Shown here: positions 2,883 to 11,714 of the stretch, piece after piece
Layout of the letters: each line of letters begins with the position of its first letter
Position numbering within the stretch: position 1 is the first letter of the stretch
Origin: a virus
Strand: one strand, 5' to 3'
DNA: 11,714 bases
Virus genome (UHGV): UHGV-0097019
Program-made: the position numbers and the translations under genes
The notes under the pieces: model-generated
The model's input: only the letters and a program-made list of their open reading frames with translations
Database searches by the model: none
What the model was told of the DNA's origin: nothing

Positions 2883-4703
2883 TTATGCCTGAGTACGCAG
2901 CGCTTCAAGGCGGCGCAGGTCGAAGTCGTTCAGTTCGTCGGTGTAGTCAGCAGTGATTGGCGCTGGCCATTCACCTGTGTCGAATCCGGTTGCGATATTG
3001 CGCATCGCTTTGCGGTACTCGAGCATACCCAGCTCCAGTAGTTCAGCGGATGCCTCGATGATGGCGATCCAGTGGTAGTTCTCGTCTTTGTTGACGAAAA
3101 TCCAGAAGAACTGATCCAGCGCTGCGGTTTCGCAGTACATAGCCGCGCTCAGGTGATAATCACGTTCAATAATTTCCCGGTGTAGCCTGGCGCGCAGGCT
3201 TTCCTGCTTAACATTCCACATGCTGATGGTTTTCAGGTCAGCACCGATACGCACGCCGTCTAGGTCGATCTCAAGGTCAGGGCGCACACGAACTTCCAGT
3301 CCCGTCTCCTCGTCAAAGCCAAAGTAGCTCACCTCAACGGCGCGGCTCGGGTGGGTTAGCAGCATGCCTGCGGTCGGGTGCGAGAGCAGTGCTGACTGAA
3401 TTGCCTGCGCGGTGGCAAGTTGCTGGTGGGTAACCAGCACTTTCCCTTCCGGGTTGTTGCGCCACGCATCGAGCAGCTCGTCGGCGAACACTGCATCTGG
3501 TTTGACTGCCTTCACGGCCTGAATCAGATCGGCCTTCGTGCCAGAGACTTTCAGCGGTTGCAGCTTCTGAGCTTCCTGCGCGACCAGGTCAGGATTGATA
3601 ATCGCAAGTTGTTCGAGTAGTGCGTCGCGGCTGCCGCTGGTTTTAATCTGCGCTGGCAGGGTGGCGTTGTACTCTTTGATGCACGCCTTCATTGCTGTTG
3701 CTGTCTTCTTCTGATCTGCATCGATACGTTGGAATTCAGCTGGCAGCGCCATATAGTTCTGCGCCGTTTCATCCAGGCTAGCGCCCAGCGGCACCAGCGC
3801 TGGCAGGGTGGCGTTGTATTCATCCAGCAAAGCTTTGATATCGTCTGCGCTCAGTTGCGCTGGCAGGCTGGCGTTGTACTCATCAATAAACGCGCGGATC
3901 GTTGCCGTGGTGGTAAATGCACCTTCCGGAATTACGGGTTCAACGCTAAATTCTTCATCGAGCTGTTCTGGCTGCAACGCCAGCGCATGTACCAGGTTTC
4001 CCATGTCCAGCACTGAGGAGCGCTCTTTGACGATGGTTTTCTCAACGTGGCGCGCATTGAAGTACATCAGCGAAACGCGCGCATCTTTTACCTGGGTGGA
4101 ACTGATGCCGTTGGCAGCGTGGTAAACCTCGTTCGGCAGACCTTCATAGCGCCCAGGCTCGAAGTAATCGGGGTAAAAAACAGCTTGTTCGTCAGATTGC
4201 GCCTCTGGCTCGACGTGTGCCAAAACTGGTTCAGTCTGGTTTACAGAATCGCTATTTTGAGCGACAGATTCCGTATTTTGGTTTACATCGGCCTGCTGGC
4301 CGGGATGTGACTCTTCACCAGTTTCCAGACTGCTTTCGCCTGACTGCATTTCATTACCAACATTTTTTTCATCACTGACAGTTTCTTGAACCTGCACATT
4401 GCTGGTGGTTTCCGTAGCCTGTTTCGTGCCATGAGTTGCTGAGTTCTGCAGTAAAGCCGTAACATCGAATATTCCGTTGCCGACATTTTTAACCAGTTCT
4501 TGTTCGGCTTTATGTGGTTGTGCTGTCGCTTCCTCTGCGCGGCGGCGTGCTTCTTCTTCACGTACGCGTTGCAGGTTCTCTTCGTGAGTGCAGAAGGGTT
4601 TGCGTGGAGACTCCTTACTTTCAGGTTGGGGAATTTCCTGTGTTGCGGGCTCAGCTTCATGCAATGGCAATAACTCAACAGCAGCATTAAACGCAGCAGT
4701 CAT
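2883..4703 (-). CDS. recE: RecE-like exonuclease VIII (PD-(D/E)XK nuclease) with acidic/Q-rich N-terminal region and internal repeats
   Basis: 606-aa ORF. C-terminal half contains ...ETGLEVRVRPDLEIDLDGVRIGADLKT..., consistent with a PD-(D/E)XK motif, and an upstream YHAANGISSTQVK segment. Gene order with the recT-like gene matches Rac-type recET. N-terminal ~170 aa is low-complexity (E/Q/S/T-rich). Confidence 0.6.
   Translation of the reverse strand: MTAAFNAAVELLPLHEAEPATQEIPQPESKESPRKPFCTHEENLQRVREEEARRRAEEATAQPHKAEQELVKNVGNGIFDVTALLQNSATHGTKQATETTSNVQVQETVSDEKNVGNEMQSGESSLETGEESHPGQQADVNQNTESVAQNSDSVNQTEPVLAHVEPEAQSDEQAVFYPDYFEPGRYEGLPNEVYHAANGISSTQVKDARVSLMYFNARHVEKTIVKERSSVLDMGNLVHALALQPEQLDEEFSVEPVIPEGAFTTTATIRAFIDEYNASLPAQLSADDIKALLDEYNATLPALVPLGASLDETAQNYMALPAEFQRIDADQKKTATAMKACIKEYNATLPAQIKTSGSRDALLEQLAIINPDLVAQEAQKLQPLKVSGTKADLIQAVKAVKPDAVFADELLDAWRNNPEGKVLVTHQQLATAQAIQSALLSHPTAGMLLTHPSRAVEVSYFGFDEETGLEVRVRPDLEIDLDGVRIGADLKTISMWNVKQESLRARLHREIIERDYHLSAAMYCETAALDQFFWIFVNKDENYHWIAIIEASAELLELGMLEYRKAMRNIATGFDTGEWPAPITADYTDELNDFDLRRLEALRTQA
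3651..3882. repeat. Three near-identical 24-bp intragenic direct repeats (CGCTGGCAGG[G/C]TGGCGTTGTA[C/T]TC at 3651, 3799, 3859), each encoding EYNA(S/T)LPA in the RecE-like protein
   Basis: Seen directly. Reverse complement GAGTACAACGCCACCCTGCCAGCG translates to EYNATLPA. Protein context: IDEYNASLPAQ, LDEYNATLPAL, IKEYNATLPAQ. Confidence 0.8.
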
Positions 4704-8885: not shown

Positions 8886-9086
8886 GTGGAAAAATGTAAT
8901 CGCTGTATAGTCGGCCTGATTGGGTCGCAGCCAGTTCTTTCCAGTGACTGGGCTAATGCGGTCGTAAATTTTGAAATCGTAATTGCTGACTGGAACGAGA
9001 AAACCAAACGCTTTGCCGTTCCGCATCCTGGATTCGCCCATAAGTTCAATTACTGCCCGCATTGCGGAAACAAGGTAGAGGACTAA
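8886..9086 (+). CDS. Small zinc-ribbon protein (CxxC...CxxC)
   Basis: 66 aa; GTG start 5 nt after the previous stop with AGGGGG upstream. CNRC near the N-terminus and CPHC near the C-terminus. Confidence 0.5.
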   Translation: MEKCNRCIVGLIGSQPVLSSDWANAVVNFEIVIADWNEKTKRFAVPHPGFAHKFNYCPHCGNKVED

Positions 9087-9089
9087 CCC

Positions 9090-9647
9090 ATGACAACTAA
9101 CAACCACCCGGCGCACGGTCCTGTATCACTTGATCGCTTGCACCAGATACGCGAAATACTCAGCAAAGCAGCAGCACAAAGCGACGGCGGTAATCTCGGC
9201 TACGCAATGGCTGATGCAGTGAAGGTGATTGATGGGGTTCTGGAGTCGATAGCCCGTGAGCAGGTACGCTGTGAACATGCAGCATGGTCAGATGAAACAT
9301 TCGGCGATGTCGGTCCAGTTGGTCCGCTGAAGCACCTTTCCAAAGAAGCTATCGAGGCTGCTGCGGAACCAGACGAGATGAGCGAATGGGCTGACATGCA
9401 ATTCCTGTTATGGGATGCGCAACGTCGTGCCGGTATCAGTGATAAGCAGATTACCCTGGCGATGGTAGAAAAGCTGGCGGTTAACAAAAACCGCCAGTGG
9501 CCAGAGCCGAAAGACGGTGAACCGCGACTGCATATCAAAGCGCAGTCAGAATCGGTGCTTCCTGGAATTGAATGCGATATCTGCGGACATGTATCTACTG
9601 ACCCAGAGGGACGGCACTACTACTGCGAGGATAACAGTAATGATTGA
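9090..9647 (+). CDS. DUF550-like protein (MazG-like nucleotide pyrophosphohydrolase family, predicted)
   Basis: 185 aa with GAGGA Shine-Dalgarno. The segment SEWADMQFLLWDAQRRAGISDKQITLAMVEKLAVNKNRQWPEPKDGEPRLHIK resembles DUF550 proteins common in lambdoid nin regions (from memory, unverified). Confidence 0.6.
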   Translation: MTTNNHPAHGPVSLDRLHQIREILSKAAAQSDGGNLGYAMADAVKVIDGVLESIAREQVRCEHAAWSDETFGDVGPVGPLKHLSKEAIEAAAEPDEMSEWADMQFLLWDAQRRAGISDKQITLAMVEKLAVNKNRQWPEPKDGEPRLHIKAQSESVLPGIECDICGHVSTDPEGRHYYCEDNSND

Positions 9648-9819
9648 TAAATACCGTTTGGAGAATATGCGACGCGAAAGCGGCGAAAAGGGAGAACTCG
9701 GGACATGCCGTTTGAAGGTGACATGCATAATGCCCTAGTCGATGCGAAACATCAGGCTATGTATGTCTCAGCCATCTGGAAGCTGCTAATCATCACCCCA
9801 GATAACAGCGAGGCATAAC

Positions 9820-10021
9820 ATGACTGAGCAACCTGATGATCTCCTCACTCCGGGCGAGGTATGCCAGAAGCTGGGAATTACGCAAAAAACATTATGTAAA
9901 TGGAATACAGAACACCGACACCGGTCTACATTGGCCCCGTGTAAAGTTCAGCGCTAAGATTGTTCGCTATGAGCGCCGTAGCATAGAAGCTTTTATCCAG
10001 AAATGCCGGAGCCAATATTGA
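9820..10021 (+). pseudogene. Frameshifted AlpA/excisionase-type HTH gene
   Basis: Frame A from ATG 9820 gives MTEQPDDLLTPGEVCQKLGITQKTLCKWNTEH..., then stops at 9955-9957. Frame +2 gives TPVYIGP around 9922-9940. Frame +1 gives PRVKFSAKIVRYERRSIEAFIQKCRSQY through 10021. Joined, they make a canonical ~68-aa HTH protein, implying two 1-nt frame changes near 9920-9930 and in the C-run at 9935-9938. Confidence 0.45.
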
Positions 10022-10029
10022 TCTAATGT

Positions 10030-10072
10030 GGGGCTATTGTTTTTTAACAAATGCCCCTCATTTAACTTTTTT
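10030..10072 (+). terminator. Possible intrinsic terminator after the HTH pseudogene
   Basis: Interrupted hairpin GGGGC-TA-TTGTT-TTTT-AACAA-AT-GCCCC (10030-10057) followed by a T-rich stretch TCATTTAACTTTTTT. The stem is bulged and the U-run is not contiguous. Confidence 0.35.
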
Positions 10073-10448
10073 GTGTGTTAAGTCCAATTCTGACCCCACA
10101 CATAAAATCACCAATACCTGCGCCAACACTGTTCCCATCAGCAACATAATCACCTTTGAAAGCTAATTTCCCATCCATATAGAAGAATCTTATCTCCCCA
10201 TATCCACTATCACAGTCGGCATCTTTAATACTAACTTTGTAGTACTCTACTTTTTTATTTTTTGTTTGATACATGAACAAGGCAGATGAATCACCTTTTA
10301 CATTTCTAAATGTGCCTTTTTTTGCTGAAAAAATGCCATCATCAGCTGTAGTAACCTCAACCCAGTTACTTGTCGTTTCAGCAAAAGCAACACTTGCAAC
10401 AAAAAGAGCAGAAAAGCCCAGTAATGCGATTTTCTTAGCCATAAACAA
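10062..10448 (-). CDS. Small secreted/periplasmic protein with N-terminal signal peptide
   Basis: 128 aa. MFMAKKIALLGFSALFVASVAFA-ETTS reads as a Sec signal peptide with an AxA cleavage site. Two Cys in the mature part. Strongly AT-rich. Confidence 0.6.
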   Translation of the reverse strand: MFMAKKIALLGFSALFVASVAFAETTSNWVEVTTADDGIFSAKKGTFRNVKGDSSALFMYQTKNKKVEYYKVSIKDADCDSGYGEIRFFYMDGKLAFKGDYVADGNSVGAGIGDFMCGVRIGLNTQKS

Positions 10449-10721
10449 TATTCCATTTATTTAGGATTTTTCTTGATTCTATCTGTGTTTTAAATAACGT
10501 TCAACTACACACCGCATGCCTTCTTAAATGGGCATGGAGAGCCATTCAACCCCGTAGCTTTAGCAACGCAACTTGCGCGAGAATGTTCCGCTTTTAAGTC
10601 GCAGCGAGACAAGACTCATGAGTAACATAAAGTTAACCCGCTACGTCGGTTTTTCACTCTCTATTGTATATGCTATTTTTTATGCAATAAGAGCGATTCG
10701 TAGGACTCTTCTGGGGAAGGT

Positions 10722-10919
10722 ATGGATTCAACAATCGACGAAGAAAAACGCATAGAATTTGAAAAATTCATCATTGAAAGGTTTGGTGATGCAGTTAATC
10801 TCCGCAGAGCGAAAAATGGCGGTAATGGATATATATCATGGGAGGCGGCTGTCGCATGGATTGTCTGGAGGGAGCGCTCATCCCATCATGAAGCAACGCC
10901 TACCTCTGACGGGAACTGA
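10722..10919 (+). CDS. Hypothetical small protein; coding status uncertain
   Basis: 65-aa ORF, MDSTIDEEKRIEFEKFIIERFGDAVNL..., with GGGGAAGG just upstream. Overlaps ORFs in another frame (10573-10755, 10759-11103), so it may be part of a decayed gene. Confidence 0.25.
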   Translation: MDSTIDEEKRIEFEKFIIERFGDAVNLRRAKNGGNGYISWEAAVAWIVWRERSSHHEATPTSDGN

Positions 10920-11142: not shown

Positions 11143-11714
11143 CTATCCTGCATCTTCTTCGACATTGTATTTTCGTTGCTCAATATCCCATGGAAGCGCA
11201 GGTTGTTTGCGAACTAGTTTTCTTTTGCCGTTTGAGAAAAAATAAGTTCTGAGTTCTAAAAAATGGCGGCGTTTTTTCGTTTGAGGCTCATAGGTGATAA
11301 GAAAAAAAATCAAAGGCCTGCTTGCTTCACTCCATATTCTACTTGCTTTTTCAATAACAATATTGATGTTTTCATGCTGACAATATGAGATGAATGTGGA
11401 GAAATAGCACTTGTCGTTTTTTTCAAGCAGTTTGTCTAACTCGTTAACGCTATCTCTGTCTGCCTGATTATACTCCCACTCAACATAGGTTAAAATTTGA
11501 TTGTCTGGATATTGTAGGACCGCATCGGTACGCCCGCCTTGTTCAAAAAATGTTCTTGCGCCCATTAACTTTGCACACTCGCGCATGACCAGGCCAACAT
11601 GAATGGTCCAGTTGGAACGGTTGATATATTCACCTTTGAACACAGGGAAATCTTGATACCACACACAATTAAACAGACAGATAAAATCGCGCTCTACTCG
11701 CTTCAACGCCTCCC
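11143..11714 (-). CDS. Hypothetical protein, probably 5'-truncated by the window edge
   Basis: ORF of at least 187 aa on the minus strand, still open at the window end (only a TTG at 11704-11706 inside the window). AT-rich. No family recognised. Confidence 0.45.
   Translation of the reverse strand, partial: EALKRVERDFICLFNCVWYQDFPVFKGEYINRSNWTIHVGLVMRECAKLMGARTFFEQGGRTDAVLQYPDNQILTYVEWEYNQADRDSVNELDKLLEKNDKCYFSTFISYCQHENINIVIEKASRIWSEASRPLIFFLITYEPQTKKRRHFLELRTYFFSNGKRKLVRKQPALPWDIEQRKYNVEEDAG

What the first reader, a model, noticed from the sequence alone, without database searches (positions are those of the whole stretch)
9820..10021. AlpA/excisionase-type HTH gene disrupted by two closely spaced frame changes
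A convincing HTH N-terminus in one frame (LLTPGEVCQKLGITQKTLCKW) and a convincing C-terminus in another (PRVKFSAKIVRYERRSIEAFI) are bridged by a short stretch in the third frame (TPVYIGP). Two single-base indels, one near 9920-9930 and one in the C-run at 9935-9938, would restore a typical ~68-aa protein. It is either a genuine pseudogene, marking decay of the prophage, or a sequencing error in homopolymer context. Programmed frameshifting is unlikely.
Basis: seen in the sequence. Interest (0 to 1): 0.45.

Follow-up and report, generated by a model that had tools for sequence, protein, structure and literature searches.

The report
Frameshifted orphan excisionase-like gene relic
This is a dead copy of a small phage DNA-binding (excisionase-like) gene, broken by one extra base and left without its partner integrase inside an E. 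coli prophage, so it is an ordinary pseudogene.

Summary
It has one frame change, not two. Intact 66-aa orthologues (Citrobacter, Shimwellia, Kluyvera, 160 complete E. coli genomes, Serratia phage OS31) read ...CKWNTEHRHRSTLAP-VKFSAKVVRYERR... So frame 1 is genuine through Pro40, and the frame-3 'TPVYIGP' is a chance look-alike. One extra base at 9939/9940, just 3' of the C-run, causes the shift. Removing it gives a protein 92% identical to the Citrobacter orthologue.

Intact orthologues usually lie between a 3'-5' exoribonuclease gene and a convergent 465-aa tyrosine integrase at a prophage end. In the window the exonuclease is a 37-codon stub, and only the last ~15 codons of the integrase remain. 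The whole ~0.9-kb piece sits in the middle of a Rac-like lambdoid prophage that has its own integrase.

The exact 45-aa frame-1 product occurs on 273 contigs, always in this cassette and never beside an integrase. It is therefore not a sequencing error. The family is Pfam HTH_17 (MerR/Xis/BldC-type winged helix), not Phage_AlpA. Some genomes carry a second indel (A6 to A5) that reopens a 66-aa ORF with 17 scrambled residues.

The parts
9699..9818 (+). 3' remnant (last ~37-39 codons) of an Rv2179c-like 3'-5' exoribonuclease gene. This is the left-hand neighbour of xis in intact modules.
   Evidence: tblastn to residues 153-189 of the 190-aa Citrobacter exonuclease, 84% identity. PGAP annotates it as a pseudogene missing its N-terminus. 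Homology to the intact module starts at 9699.
9810..9813 (+). Shine-Dalgarno-like GAGG, 6 nt upstream of the ATG at 9820
   Evidence: Read directly from the sequence. Conserved in the Citrobacter orthologue.
9820..9939 (+). xis-like gene, codons 1-40, in frame 1 (MTEQPDDLLTPGEVCQKLGITQKTLCKWNTEHRHRSTLAP). It holds the helix-turn-helix and the invariant HRHR..LAP motif.
   Evidence: Colinear with intact orthologues P0001-P0007 and OS31 p02. phrog_4745 E=7e-13 for the frame-1 product.
9884..9889 (+). A6 homopolymer inside the gene. It has the ancestral length here; it is A5 in the 'compensated' alleles and A7 in strain NCTC11023.
   Evidence: Alignments and pattern count over 10 loci.
9939..9940 (+). 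Site of the single extra base that causes the frameshift (G9939 or T9940, depending on which orthologue is the reference)
   Evidence: The window reads GCCCCGTGTAAAG. Orthologues read GCCCC-TGTAAA (L004, L017, L018) or GCCCCG-GTAAAG (L019).
9941..10021 (+). xis-like gene, codons 41-66 plus stop, now in frame 2 (VKFSAKIVRYERRSIEAFIQKCRSQY*)
   Evidence: tblastn to residues 41-66 of P0001, 88% identity. Frame-2 ORF listed.
10062..10442 (-). Intact 126-aa gene with a signal-peptide-like N-terminus. It is a cargo gene that lies between xis and int in the Citrobacter and Kluyvera modules.
   Evidence: 82% identical to the 126-aa ORF of L004 and 75% to that of L019. No Pfam or PHROG family.
10546..10593 (-). 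3' remnant (last ~15 codons plus stop) of the cognate 465-aa tyrosine integrase gene
   Evidence: The minus-strand translation KRNILAQVALLKLRG* matches the integrase C-terminus ...RSILAQVALLRRRG*. Nucleotide homology to L004 ends at 10590.

Best explanation
The feature is a pseudogene of a 66-aa HTH_17 (MerR/Xis/BldC-type winged-helix) DNA-binding protein. In intact elements that protein is encoded at a prophage end, next to a convergent 465-aa tyrosine integrase, and is most likely its excisionase (recombination directionality factor).

A fragment of such a module, exo-xis-orf126 plus the last ~15 codons of int, has been recombined into the early-right region of Rac-like/lambdoid prophages. 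It lies between the replication genes and the nin/DinI region. Without its integrase the xis copy had no job to do. A single-base insertion at 9939/9940 moved codons 41-66 into another frame. Translation from the intact start now gives a 45-aa product that keeps the helix-turn-helix but lacks the beta-wing and C-terminal helix.

Shown: the single insertion, the intact orthologues, the truncated neighbours and the wide occurrence of the allele. Inferred: the excisionase role of the intact protein, and that the truncated product has no function.
For: One extra base:
- It is seen relative to all intact orthologues at DNA level.
- The restored protein is 92% identical to P0001.
- It reaches the Pfam HTH_17 gathering score over the full domain (27.1 vs 27.0 bits, residues 8-63).
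- It scores 147 bits on the orthologue profile, against 115-122 bits for a two-shift model.

Context of intact copies:
- exo-xis-(orf126)-int(-)-host genes in Citrobacter.
- A full-length integrase homologue within about 0.75 kb downstream of an uninterrupted xis in 9 of the 13 orthologue loci examined (OS31, L004, and 7 of the 11 uninterrupted genome-contig loci). A 10th int-linked copy, L028, is itself frameshifted.
- 160 complete E. coli genomes carry the integrase homologue. In the one inspected, an intact 66-aa gene overlaps the integrase 3' end by 4 bp beside yfhL/acpS.
- OS31 is a mitomycin-inducible phage whose p02 is annotated as a putative excisionase with PF12728 (PMC7556043).

Fold: an AF2 model of P0001 gives beta-alpha-alpha-beta-beta-alpha. 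The best PDB matches are BldC, Pukovnik Xis and RdfS excisionase.

Relic status:
- Window 9699-10590 is 85% identical to the Citrobacter module, with only exo residues 153-189 and the last ~15 integrase codons present.
- The prophage has its own, different integrase beside kch.
- An intermediate form (L040) has a full-length exo with a W104* nonsense codon, the same xis insertion and the same int stub.

Not an error:
- The sequence is identical in PSJ-22 and ES7 and also present in NCTC11023.
- The exact 45-aa product is on 273 contigs and listed in 464 blocks of the collection.
- It sits in at least 10 different lambdoid mosaics and is never beside an integrase.
Against: - No experiment shows that any member of this family is an excisionase. 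TIGR01764 'excise' scores only 14-16 bits against a 28.8-bit cut-off.
- Three orthologue loci (L023-L025) are not next to the 465-aa integrase, so a plain regulator role is possible.
- The 45-aa ORF keeps its start, Shine-Dalgarno sequence and HTH, and is widespread. A residual function cannot be excluded.
- Diversity within the relic population is too low (one SNP plus A-run indels in 20 loci) to test for relaxed selection.
- Whether the insertion came before or after loss of the integrase is not resolved.
Confidence: 0.88

Rival explanations
1. One reading: two single-base indels (about 9920-9930 and 9935-9938), with a short genuine stretch in frame 3 (TPVYIGP, resembling the P-x-P..IG motif of AlpA-type proteins).
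For: Frame 3 does read TPTPVYIGP. A two-shift reconstruction still matches phrog_4745 and HTH_17, because both ends are genuine.
Against: Every intact orthologue reads N-x-x-HRHR-x-x-LAP at this point, exactly as frame 1 of the window encodes it. DNA alignment shows no indel between 9890 and 9938. The two-shift versions score 25-32 bits below the one-shift restoration on the orthologue profile. There is no Phage_AlpA hit.
Confidence: 0.02
2. Sequencing or assembly error in a homopolymer context, with the real gene intact.
For: The extra base abuts a C4 run. NCTC11023, a long-read assembly by my recollection, shows A7 instead of A6, which could be a homopolymer error.
Against: The extra base is not in the homopolymer itself. 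It is present in all relic copies examined (10 loci matched by a strict pattern; 20 loci compared), from NCBI, ENA, JGI and Logan. The exact 45-aa product is on 273 contigs. It also occurs in diverged copies such as L040.
Confidence: 0.01
3. Programmed +1 ribosomal frameshifting, or transcriptional slippage, produces the full-length protein from the interrupted gene.
For: The start, Shine-Dalgarno sequence and both halves are well preserved. The allele is widespread.
Against: Orthologues achieve the same protein with a single ORF. Frame-1 codons at the site are GCC CCG UGU, so a P-site tRNA-Pro on CCG cannot re-pair on CGU. The C-run is not in the CCC-N register, and no stop or rare codon follows (sequence; mechanism from general knowledge of +1 sites such as prfB). 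The A6 run is shorter than the roughly 9 or more A/T bases I recall as needed for efficient transcriptional slippage, and slipping there would give the scrambled P0010-type protein, not the native one. Neighbouring module genes are truncated, which fits decay.
Confidence: 0.02
4. The interrupted gene is retained for a new function. Either the 45-aa HTH-only peptide acts as a small regulator, or the A-run works as a slippage-prone switch between a 45-aa and a 66-aa (scrambled-middle) product.
For: The cassette DUF550-exo stub-xis(fs)-orf126-orf187-DinI is conserved across many lambdoid mosaics. A5, A6 and A7 alleles all exist. A5 occurs on both the I47 and V47 backgrounds (P0010, P0030), which suggests recurrence.
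Against: The scrambled 17 residues replace the recognition helix and the invariant HRHR..LAP motif, and P0010 drops to 92 bits on the profile and loses the HTH_17 domain call. A 17-codon stop-free run in an alternative frame is expected by chance about 40% of the time (my estimate, (61/64)^17). Single-residue variants of the 45-aa product hit positions that are invariant in intact orthologues (L9V, T24K, R33L). Conservation of the cassette can be explained by hitch-hiking with the intact neighbours and by recent spread.
Confidence: 0.06

Closest known systems
PhiOS31_p02, putative excisionase of Serratia phage vB_SspS_OS31 (QNO00970.1; PMC7556043)
   Same: Same family. It is about 60% identical over residues 7-67 of the reconstructed query, with the same LLTP-EVC, HRHR..LAP and KCRS-Y motifs and the same left neighbour, a 3'-5' exoribonuclease. 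Pfam HTH_17.
   Different: The OS31 gene is an intact 71-aa ORF that overlaps a convergent, intact 465-aa integrase next to the attachment site of an inducible phage. The window copy is frameshifted and has only stubs of both neighbours.
WP_001291430.1, the 66-aa 'helix-turn-helix transcriptional regulator' of E. coli prophages integrated beside yfhL/acpS
   Same: Orthologous 66-aa protein (MSEKPDDLLTPDEVCQKLGITQKTLCEWNIKHRHRAILAPIRFSAKVVRYERRNVDAFIQKCRSQY), same length and same motifs. About 77% identical to the restored window protein, judged from the near-identical P0004.
   Different: It is intact and paired with its integrase by a 4-bp convergent overlap; that integrase is present in 160 of 5426 complete E. 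coli genomes. The window copy is an orphan in a different prophage type.
Structurally characterised Xis/MerR-type winged-helix proteins: BldC (6AMK/6AMA), mycobacteriophage Pukovnik Xis (4J2N), RdfS excisionase (8DGL)
   Same: The predicted fold of the intact orthologue (beta-alpha-alpha-beta-beta-alpha) superposes with TM 0.63-0.70 normalised to the query and rmsd 1.5-2.4 A. There is weak sequence similarity to BldC over the HTH (E 0.035).
   Different: Only 17-26% identity. Foldseek E-values are modest (3.6e-3 at best) and the model has pLDDT 73 from a shallow alignment. The HRHR motif and C-terminal KCRSQY are specific to this family. The window copy cannot form the wing or the last helix.
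   Same: A small prophage-encoded HTH protein of about 60-70 aa in the same broad HTH superfamily, associated with integrase genes (general knowledge).
   Different: No PF05930 match at E<=1 for the restored protein or any intact orthologue. The AlpA-like 'P-x-P..IG' resemblance exists only in the unused frame 3.

Membership tests
Pfam HTH_17 (PF12728), excisionase/MerR-like helix-turn-helix | Sequence score at or above the Pfam gathering cut-off (27.0 bits) over the whole domain | tested here: met
   Restored 66-aa protein 27.1 bits, residues 8-63 on profile positions 1-51 of 51. Orthologue P0001 scores 27.9 bits. As actually encoded, the 45-aa frame-1 product scores only 15.9 bits over profile positions 1-21, so only the ancestral gene is a member.
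Pfam HTH_17 (PF12728), excisionase/MerR-like helix-turn-helix | Winged-helix fold (beta-alpha-alpha-beta-beta-alpha) like Xis, BldC and MerR N-domains | tested here: met
   AF2 model of orthologue P0001 (pLDDT 73): E8-9, H11-18, H22-32, E40-42, E48-51, H52-65. Top PDB matches are BldC, Pukovnik Xis and RdfS at probability 1.00. Tested on the orthologue, not on the window product.
Phage_AlpA (PF05930) | Match to the family profile | tested here: not met
   No hit at E<=1 for the frame-1 product, the frame-2 ORF, either reconstruction or five intact orthologues.
Excisionase / recombination directionality factor | Encoded next to its cognate integrase at the end of an integrated element | tested here: not met
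   In the window only the last ~15 integrase codons remain (10546-10593) and the locus is internal to the prophage. Intact orthologues do meet it: 9 of the 13 uninterrupted orthologue loci examined, and the one inspected of 160 E. coli genomes that carry the integrase.
Excisionase / recombination directionality factor | Match to the curated excisionase model TIGR01764 at its cut-off (28.8 bits) | tested here: not met
   14.1-16.4 bits, covering only the first half of the model. The PHROG excisionase families phrog_1553 and phrog_66 match at E 1e-5 to 1e-6, and the best PHROG is phrog_4745 'DNA binding protein'.
Excisionase / recombination directionality factor | Stimulates integrase-mediated excision | not testable with these tools
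   No experimental data exist for any family member. The OS31 paper calls p02 a 'putative' excisionase on domain content alone.
Pseudogene (frameshifted relic) | Reading frame interrupted relative to several intact orthologues, by a defined lesion | tested here: met
   One extra base at 9939/9940 compared with L004, L017, L018, L019, L039 and OS31.
Pseudogene (frameshifted relic) | Signs of relaxed selection (dN/dS near 1, further lesions) | tested here: inconclusive
   Further lesions exist in the module: exo truncation, exo W104* in L040, int loss, and A5/A7 variants. Nucleotide diversity in the xis relic itself is too low for a dN/dS test.
Programmed ribosomal frameshift site | Frameshift conserved in orthologues, with a slippery sequence in the right register | tested here: not met
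   The closest orthologues and most others are single ORFs. The only other interrupted copies, L028 and the Logan variants P0008/P0012/P0013, carry unrelated lesions. Codons at the site are GCC CCG TGT, with no re-pairing possible after a +1 slip.

The most novel reading that the evidence does not exclude
The interrupted gene is not inert. The A-run at 9884-9889 (A5/A6/A7 alleles, with A5 arising on two backgrounds) might act as a slippage-prone switch between a 45-aa HTH-only peptide and a 66-aa protein with a new 17-residue middle. Either product might have been co-opted as a small regulator, which would help explain why this cassette is kept in many lambdoid prophages.
Probability: 0.05. 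Interest if true: 0.35.

Novelty: already known. Interest (0 to 1): 0.1.

Why it matters
It matters little beyond annotation. RefSeq leaves 9820-10021 unannotated in all three complete genomes that carry it, and other pipelines call a 45-aa or a 61-aa 'hypothetical protein'. The correct label is a frameshifted pseudogene of an HTH_17 excisionase-like gene.

The locus is a clear small example of lambdoid mosaicism followed by stepwise decay: integrase lost, exonuclease first hit by a nonsense codon and then truncated, xis frameshifted, and the cargo gene kept. It also shows that a plausible motif in a third frame can mislead a reading made from sequence alone.

The intact family (HRHR..LAP motif, convergent 4-bp overlap with a 465-aa integrase at yfhL/acpS) has no experimental characterisation and could be tested as a recombination directionality factor.

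Tried and rejected
- A nucleotide search of the phage collection with 9700-10100 matched only the exonuclease stub and found nothing for xis. A protein-mode search was needed to find OS31.
- NCBIfam gave only sub-threshold hits (BldC, excise, MADS1, Gifsy-1 Xis).
- A PDB sequence search gave only a weak BldC hit.
- The terminator scan of 9500-10800 found none, and only one promoter-like site (10504-10476, minus strand, upstream of orf126), below shuffle expectation.
- Rfam found no family in the whole window.
- Considered and rejected: the A7 allele of NCTC11023 as a 'repair'. It puts the ribosome into frame 3 and stops at TAA two codons after the run (and direct reading).
- Considered: restoring the frame by deleting a C from the run, which gives LARVKF. 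It scores 5 bits lower than LAPVKF and no orthologue has Arg there.
- A dN/dS test within the relic population was abandoned for lack of variation.

Full report
**1. The observation**

The window matches a Rac-like lambdoid prophage beside kch. It is 100% identical over 9700-10100 to E. coli PSJ-22 and ES7, and 99.5% identical to NCTC11023. At 9820 an ATG follows a GAGG (9810-9813) and the TAA of the upstream ORF.
- Frame 1 reads MTEQPDDLLTPGEVCQKLGITQKTLCKWNTEHRHRSTLAPCKVQR* (9820-9957).
- Frame 2 carries ...PRVKFSAKIVRYERRSIEAFIQKCRSQY* and ends at 10021.
- Frame 3 reads ...TPTPVYIGPV*.

PGAP annotates nothing between the exonuclease pseudogene and the next gene in any of the three RefSeq genomes.

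**2. How many frame changes**

PHROG family 4745 matched residues 1-43 of the 45-aa frame-1 product (E 7e-13). It matched the frame-2 ORF only from residue 36 on. That was the first sign that frame 1 is genuine well past 'CKW'.

A tblastn search of the phage collection found one relative, the 71-aa 'excisionase' of Serratia phage vB_SspS_OS31. Its sequence is ...LLTPEEVCKLIGGVTTKTLRDWNNNHRHRQILAPIRFTHKVVRYERKNVLAFIAKCRSAY.

A search of the large protein collection returned intact 66-aa orthologues. The closest is P0001 from Citrobacter freundii, 92% identical to the restored window protein: MIEQPDDLLTPEEVCQKLGITQKTLCKWNTEHRHRSTLAPVKFSAKVVRYERRNVEAFIQKCRSQY. In the family alignment N29, H32, R33, L38, A39 and P40 are invariant, and the window encodes all of them in frame 1.

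DNA alignment shows exactly one length difference inside the gene. The window reads GCCCCGTGTAAAG. Citrobacter and Shimwellia read GCCCC-TGTAAA, and Kluyvera reads GCCCCG-GTAAAG. The lesion is therefore one extra base at 9939/9940, next to the C-run 9935-9938 but not within it. Removing it yields ...STLAPVKFSAKIVRY....

Scores on a profile built only from intact orthologues:

| Sequence | Bits |
|---|---|
| One-shift restoration | 147 |
| Frame-1 product alone | 84 |
| Frame-2 ORF alone | 52 |

The frame-3 'TPVYIGP' is a coincidence, and there is no indel at 9920-9930.

**3. What the intact gene is**

*Sequence family.* The restored protein and P0001 reach the Pfam HTH_17 gathering score over the full domain (27.1 and 27.9 bits against 27.0). 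Phage_AlpA (PF05930) does not appear even at E<=1. NCBIfam 'excise' (TIGR01764), BldC and Gifsy-1 Xis models give only sub-threshold hits.

*Fold.* An AlphaFold2 model of P0001 has mean pLDDT 73 from an 8-sequence alignment. It shows the beta-alpha-alpha-beta-beta-alpha winged helix. Its best PDB matches are BldC, mycobacteriophage Pukovnik Xis and the RdfS excisionase, followed by MerR-family N-domains.

*Gene context.*
- In the Citrobacter prophage the order is DUF550-like, exoribonuclease (190 aa), this gene (66 aa), a 126-aa gene on the opposite strand, a 465-aa tyrosine integrase on the opposite strand, then the host genes acpS-pdxJ-recO-era-rnc.
- In OS31 the gene overlaps the convergent integrase next to the attachment site.
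- Of 12 species-representative genome loci, 8 have a homologue of this integrase within about 0.75 kb downstream, directly abutting the gene in most.
- 160 of 5426 complete E. coli genomes carry the integrase homologue. In the one inspected, an intact 66-aa gene (WP_001291430.1) overlaps the integrase 3' end by 4 bp beside yfhL/acpS.

OS31 is mitomycin-inducible. Its authors called p02 a putative excisionase from its PF12728 domain and did not test it (PMC7556043). The excisionase role is therefore a well-supported inference, not a demonstrated fact. Three loci (L023-L025) carry family members away from this integrase, in islands with AlpA-like and XRE/ImmA-like genes.

**4. Why it is broken here**

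Window 9699-10590 is 85% identical to the Citrobacter module. Only these parts of the module survive:
- the last ~37 codons of the exonuclease (9705-9818; PGAP pseudogene 9699-9818);
- the xis-like gene with the extra base;
- the intact 126-aa gene (10062-10442, minus strand);
- the last ~15 codons of the integrase (10546-10593, minus strand), KRNILAQVALLKLRG* against ...RSILAQVALLRRRG*.

The piece lies between the replication genes and the DinI/nin region of a prophage whose own, unrelated integrase sits at the kch end. An unannotated 80-aa Xis-like ORF lies next to that integrase, outside the window.

No genome had more than one place matching the xis-orf126-int query. The three relic genomes should appear in that search through the relic itself, although they were not in the rows shown. 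I therefore infer that they have no cognate integrase elsewhere.

A diverged copy, L040, is an intermediate. Its exonuclease is full length but carries a W104* nonsense codon, while the extra base in xis and the integrase stub are the same as in the window. Integrase loss and the xis insertion are therefore shared by all relic copies. The exonuclease decayed later, and by different routes in different lineages.

**5. Not an error and not recoding**

The exact 45-aa frame-1 product is on 273 contigs from NCBI, JGI, ENA and Logan, and is listed in 464 blocks of the collection. Ten different neighbourhoods were inspected. The replication modules were O/P-type, DnaT/P-type or IstB-like, and the downstream genes were RusA, NinG or DUF968. 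All contain the same cassette, DUF550, exo stub, xis(fs), orf126, orf187, DinI, and none has an integrase.

The closest orthologues, and most of the others, encode the protein in a single frame. The site GCC CCG UGU offers no re-pairing after a +1 slip. Programmed frameshifting is therefore very unlikely.

**6. A secondary twist**

About 16 contigs carry A5 instead of A6 at 9884-9889 in addition to the insertion. The second indel restores a 66-aa ORF, P0010. Its residues 24-40 are read in the wrong frame (HYVNGIQNTDTGLHWPR in place of TLCKWNTEHRHRSTLAP). This destroys the recognition helix and the invariant motif, so P0010 scores 92 bits and loses the HTH_17 domain call.

A5 occurs on both the V47 and I47 backgrounds (P0010 and P0030). 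A6+V47, the presumed ancestral relic state, also exists (L030 and others). NCTC11023 has A7, which leads to an early stop. I read this as neutral homopolymer drift in a dead gene. A stop-free run of 17 codons is expected by chance about 40% of the time, by my estimate. Phase variation or co-option is not excluded, but I give it about 5%.

**7. Verdict**

This is an ordinary pseudogene. It has a single frameshift, derives from an HTH_17 excisionase-like gene, and sits orphaned in a transplanted and decaying exo-xis-int module fragment. Interest is low.

Noticed in passing
window 9884-9889; loci L010-L016 and L002: The A-run inside the pseudogene is polymorphic: A5, A6 and A7. Together with the 9939/9940 insertion, the A5 allele reopens a 66-aa ORF (P0010, P0030) with 17 scrambled residues. 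It occurs on two SNP backgrounds.
   Followed up: partly
window 9699-9818 (+); L040 3427-3999: The upstream Rv2179c-like 3'-5' exoribonuclease is a 37-codon stub in the window. In the diverged relic L040 it is full length but carries a W104* nonsense codon. The module's genes decayed stepwise and independently.
   Followed up: yes
window 10546-10593 (-): An unannotated remnant of the last ~15 codons of a 465-aa tyrosine integrase (KRNILAQVALLKLRG*) marks the right-hand recombination junction of the transplanted module.
   Followed up: yes
window 10062-10442 (-): An intact 126-aa ORF with a signal-peptide-like N-terminus (MAKKIALLGFSALFVASVAFA/ETT...) and no Pfam or PHROG family. It lies between xis and int in Citrobacter and Kluyvera prophages and is the only module gene kept intact in the relic. 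The one promoter-like site found in the region (10504-10476, minus strand) lies just upstream of it.
   Followed up: partly
window 8886-9086 (+): A 66-aa ORF with two CxxC pairs (CNRC...CPHC), zinc-ribbon-like. PGAP does not annotate it in the three RefSeq genomes, but it is called as a gene in a metagenome contig (L029 3067-3267). No Pfam or PHROG match.
   Followed up: partly
L001 1974-2216 (-), outside the window: An unannotated 80-aa ORF directly beside the resident prophage's own integrase. Its sequence looks Xis-like (...[22 protein letters not shown]...). It is probably the prophage's real excisionase, missed by PGAP.
   Followed up: no
L028 3986-4187 (Morganella psychrotolerans DSM 17886), compared with L026: An orthologue next to an intact integrase has an independent frameshift in an A-run (A7 against A6 in strain DI-3). 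This is either a draft-assembly homopolymer error or a second, independent inactivation in this family.
   Followed up: partly
L039 3991-4191 (+) and 4188-5585 (-); L003 2971-3186 and 3183-4580: In intact modules the xis-like gene and the integrase are convergent and their 3' ends overlap by 4 bp. This differs from the co-directional xis-int arrangement of lambda and P22. The integrase is unusually long at 465 aa.
   Followed up: no
L023-L025 about 3970-4200: Family members occur away from the 465-aa integrase, in islands with AlpA-like HTH genes and XRE/ImmA-like pairs. L024 has lost the invariant Trp28, and L025 has no ORF of 60 aa or more at the site.
   Followed up: partly
proteins P0008, P0012 and P0013: Several Logan and NCBI copies of the E. 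coli-type orthologue are frameshifted or altered around the same ...AILAP... codons. This could be a mutational or sequencing hotspot at the GC-rich Ala-Pro codons; their DNA was not examined.
   Followed up: no
(E. coli genomes): Three of the 167 matches to the xis-orf126-int query are on plasmids. They were not examined.
   Followed up: no
window 11143-11706 (-) and 10722-10919 (+): A 187-aa and a 65-aa ORF travel with the relic in every mosaic seen, upstream of DinI. The 187-aa ORF has no family match. The 65-aa ORF weakly matches phrog_660, of unknown function.
   Followed up: partly
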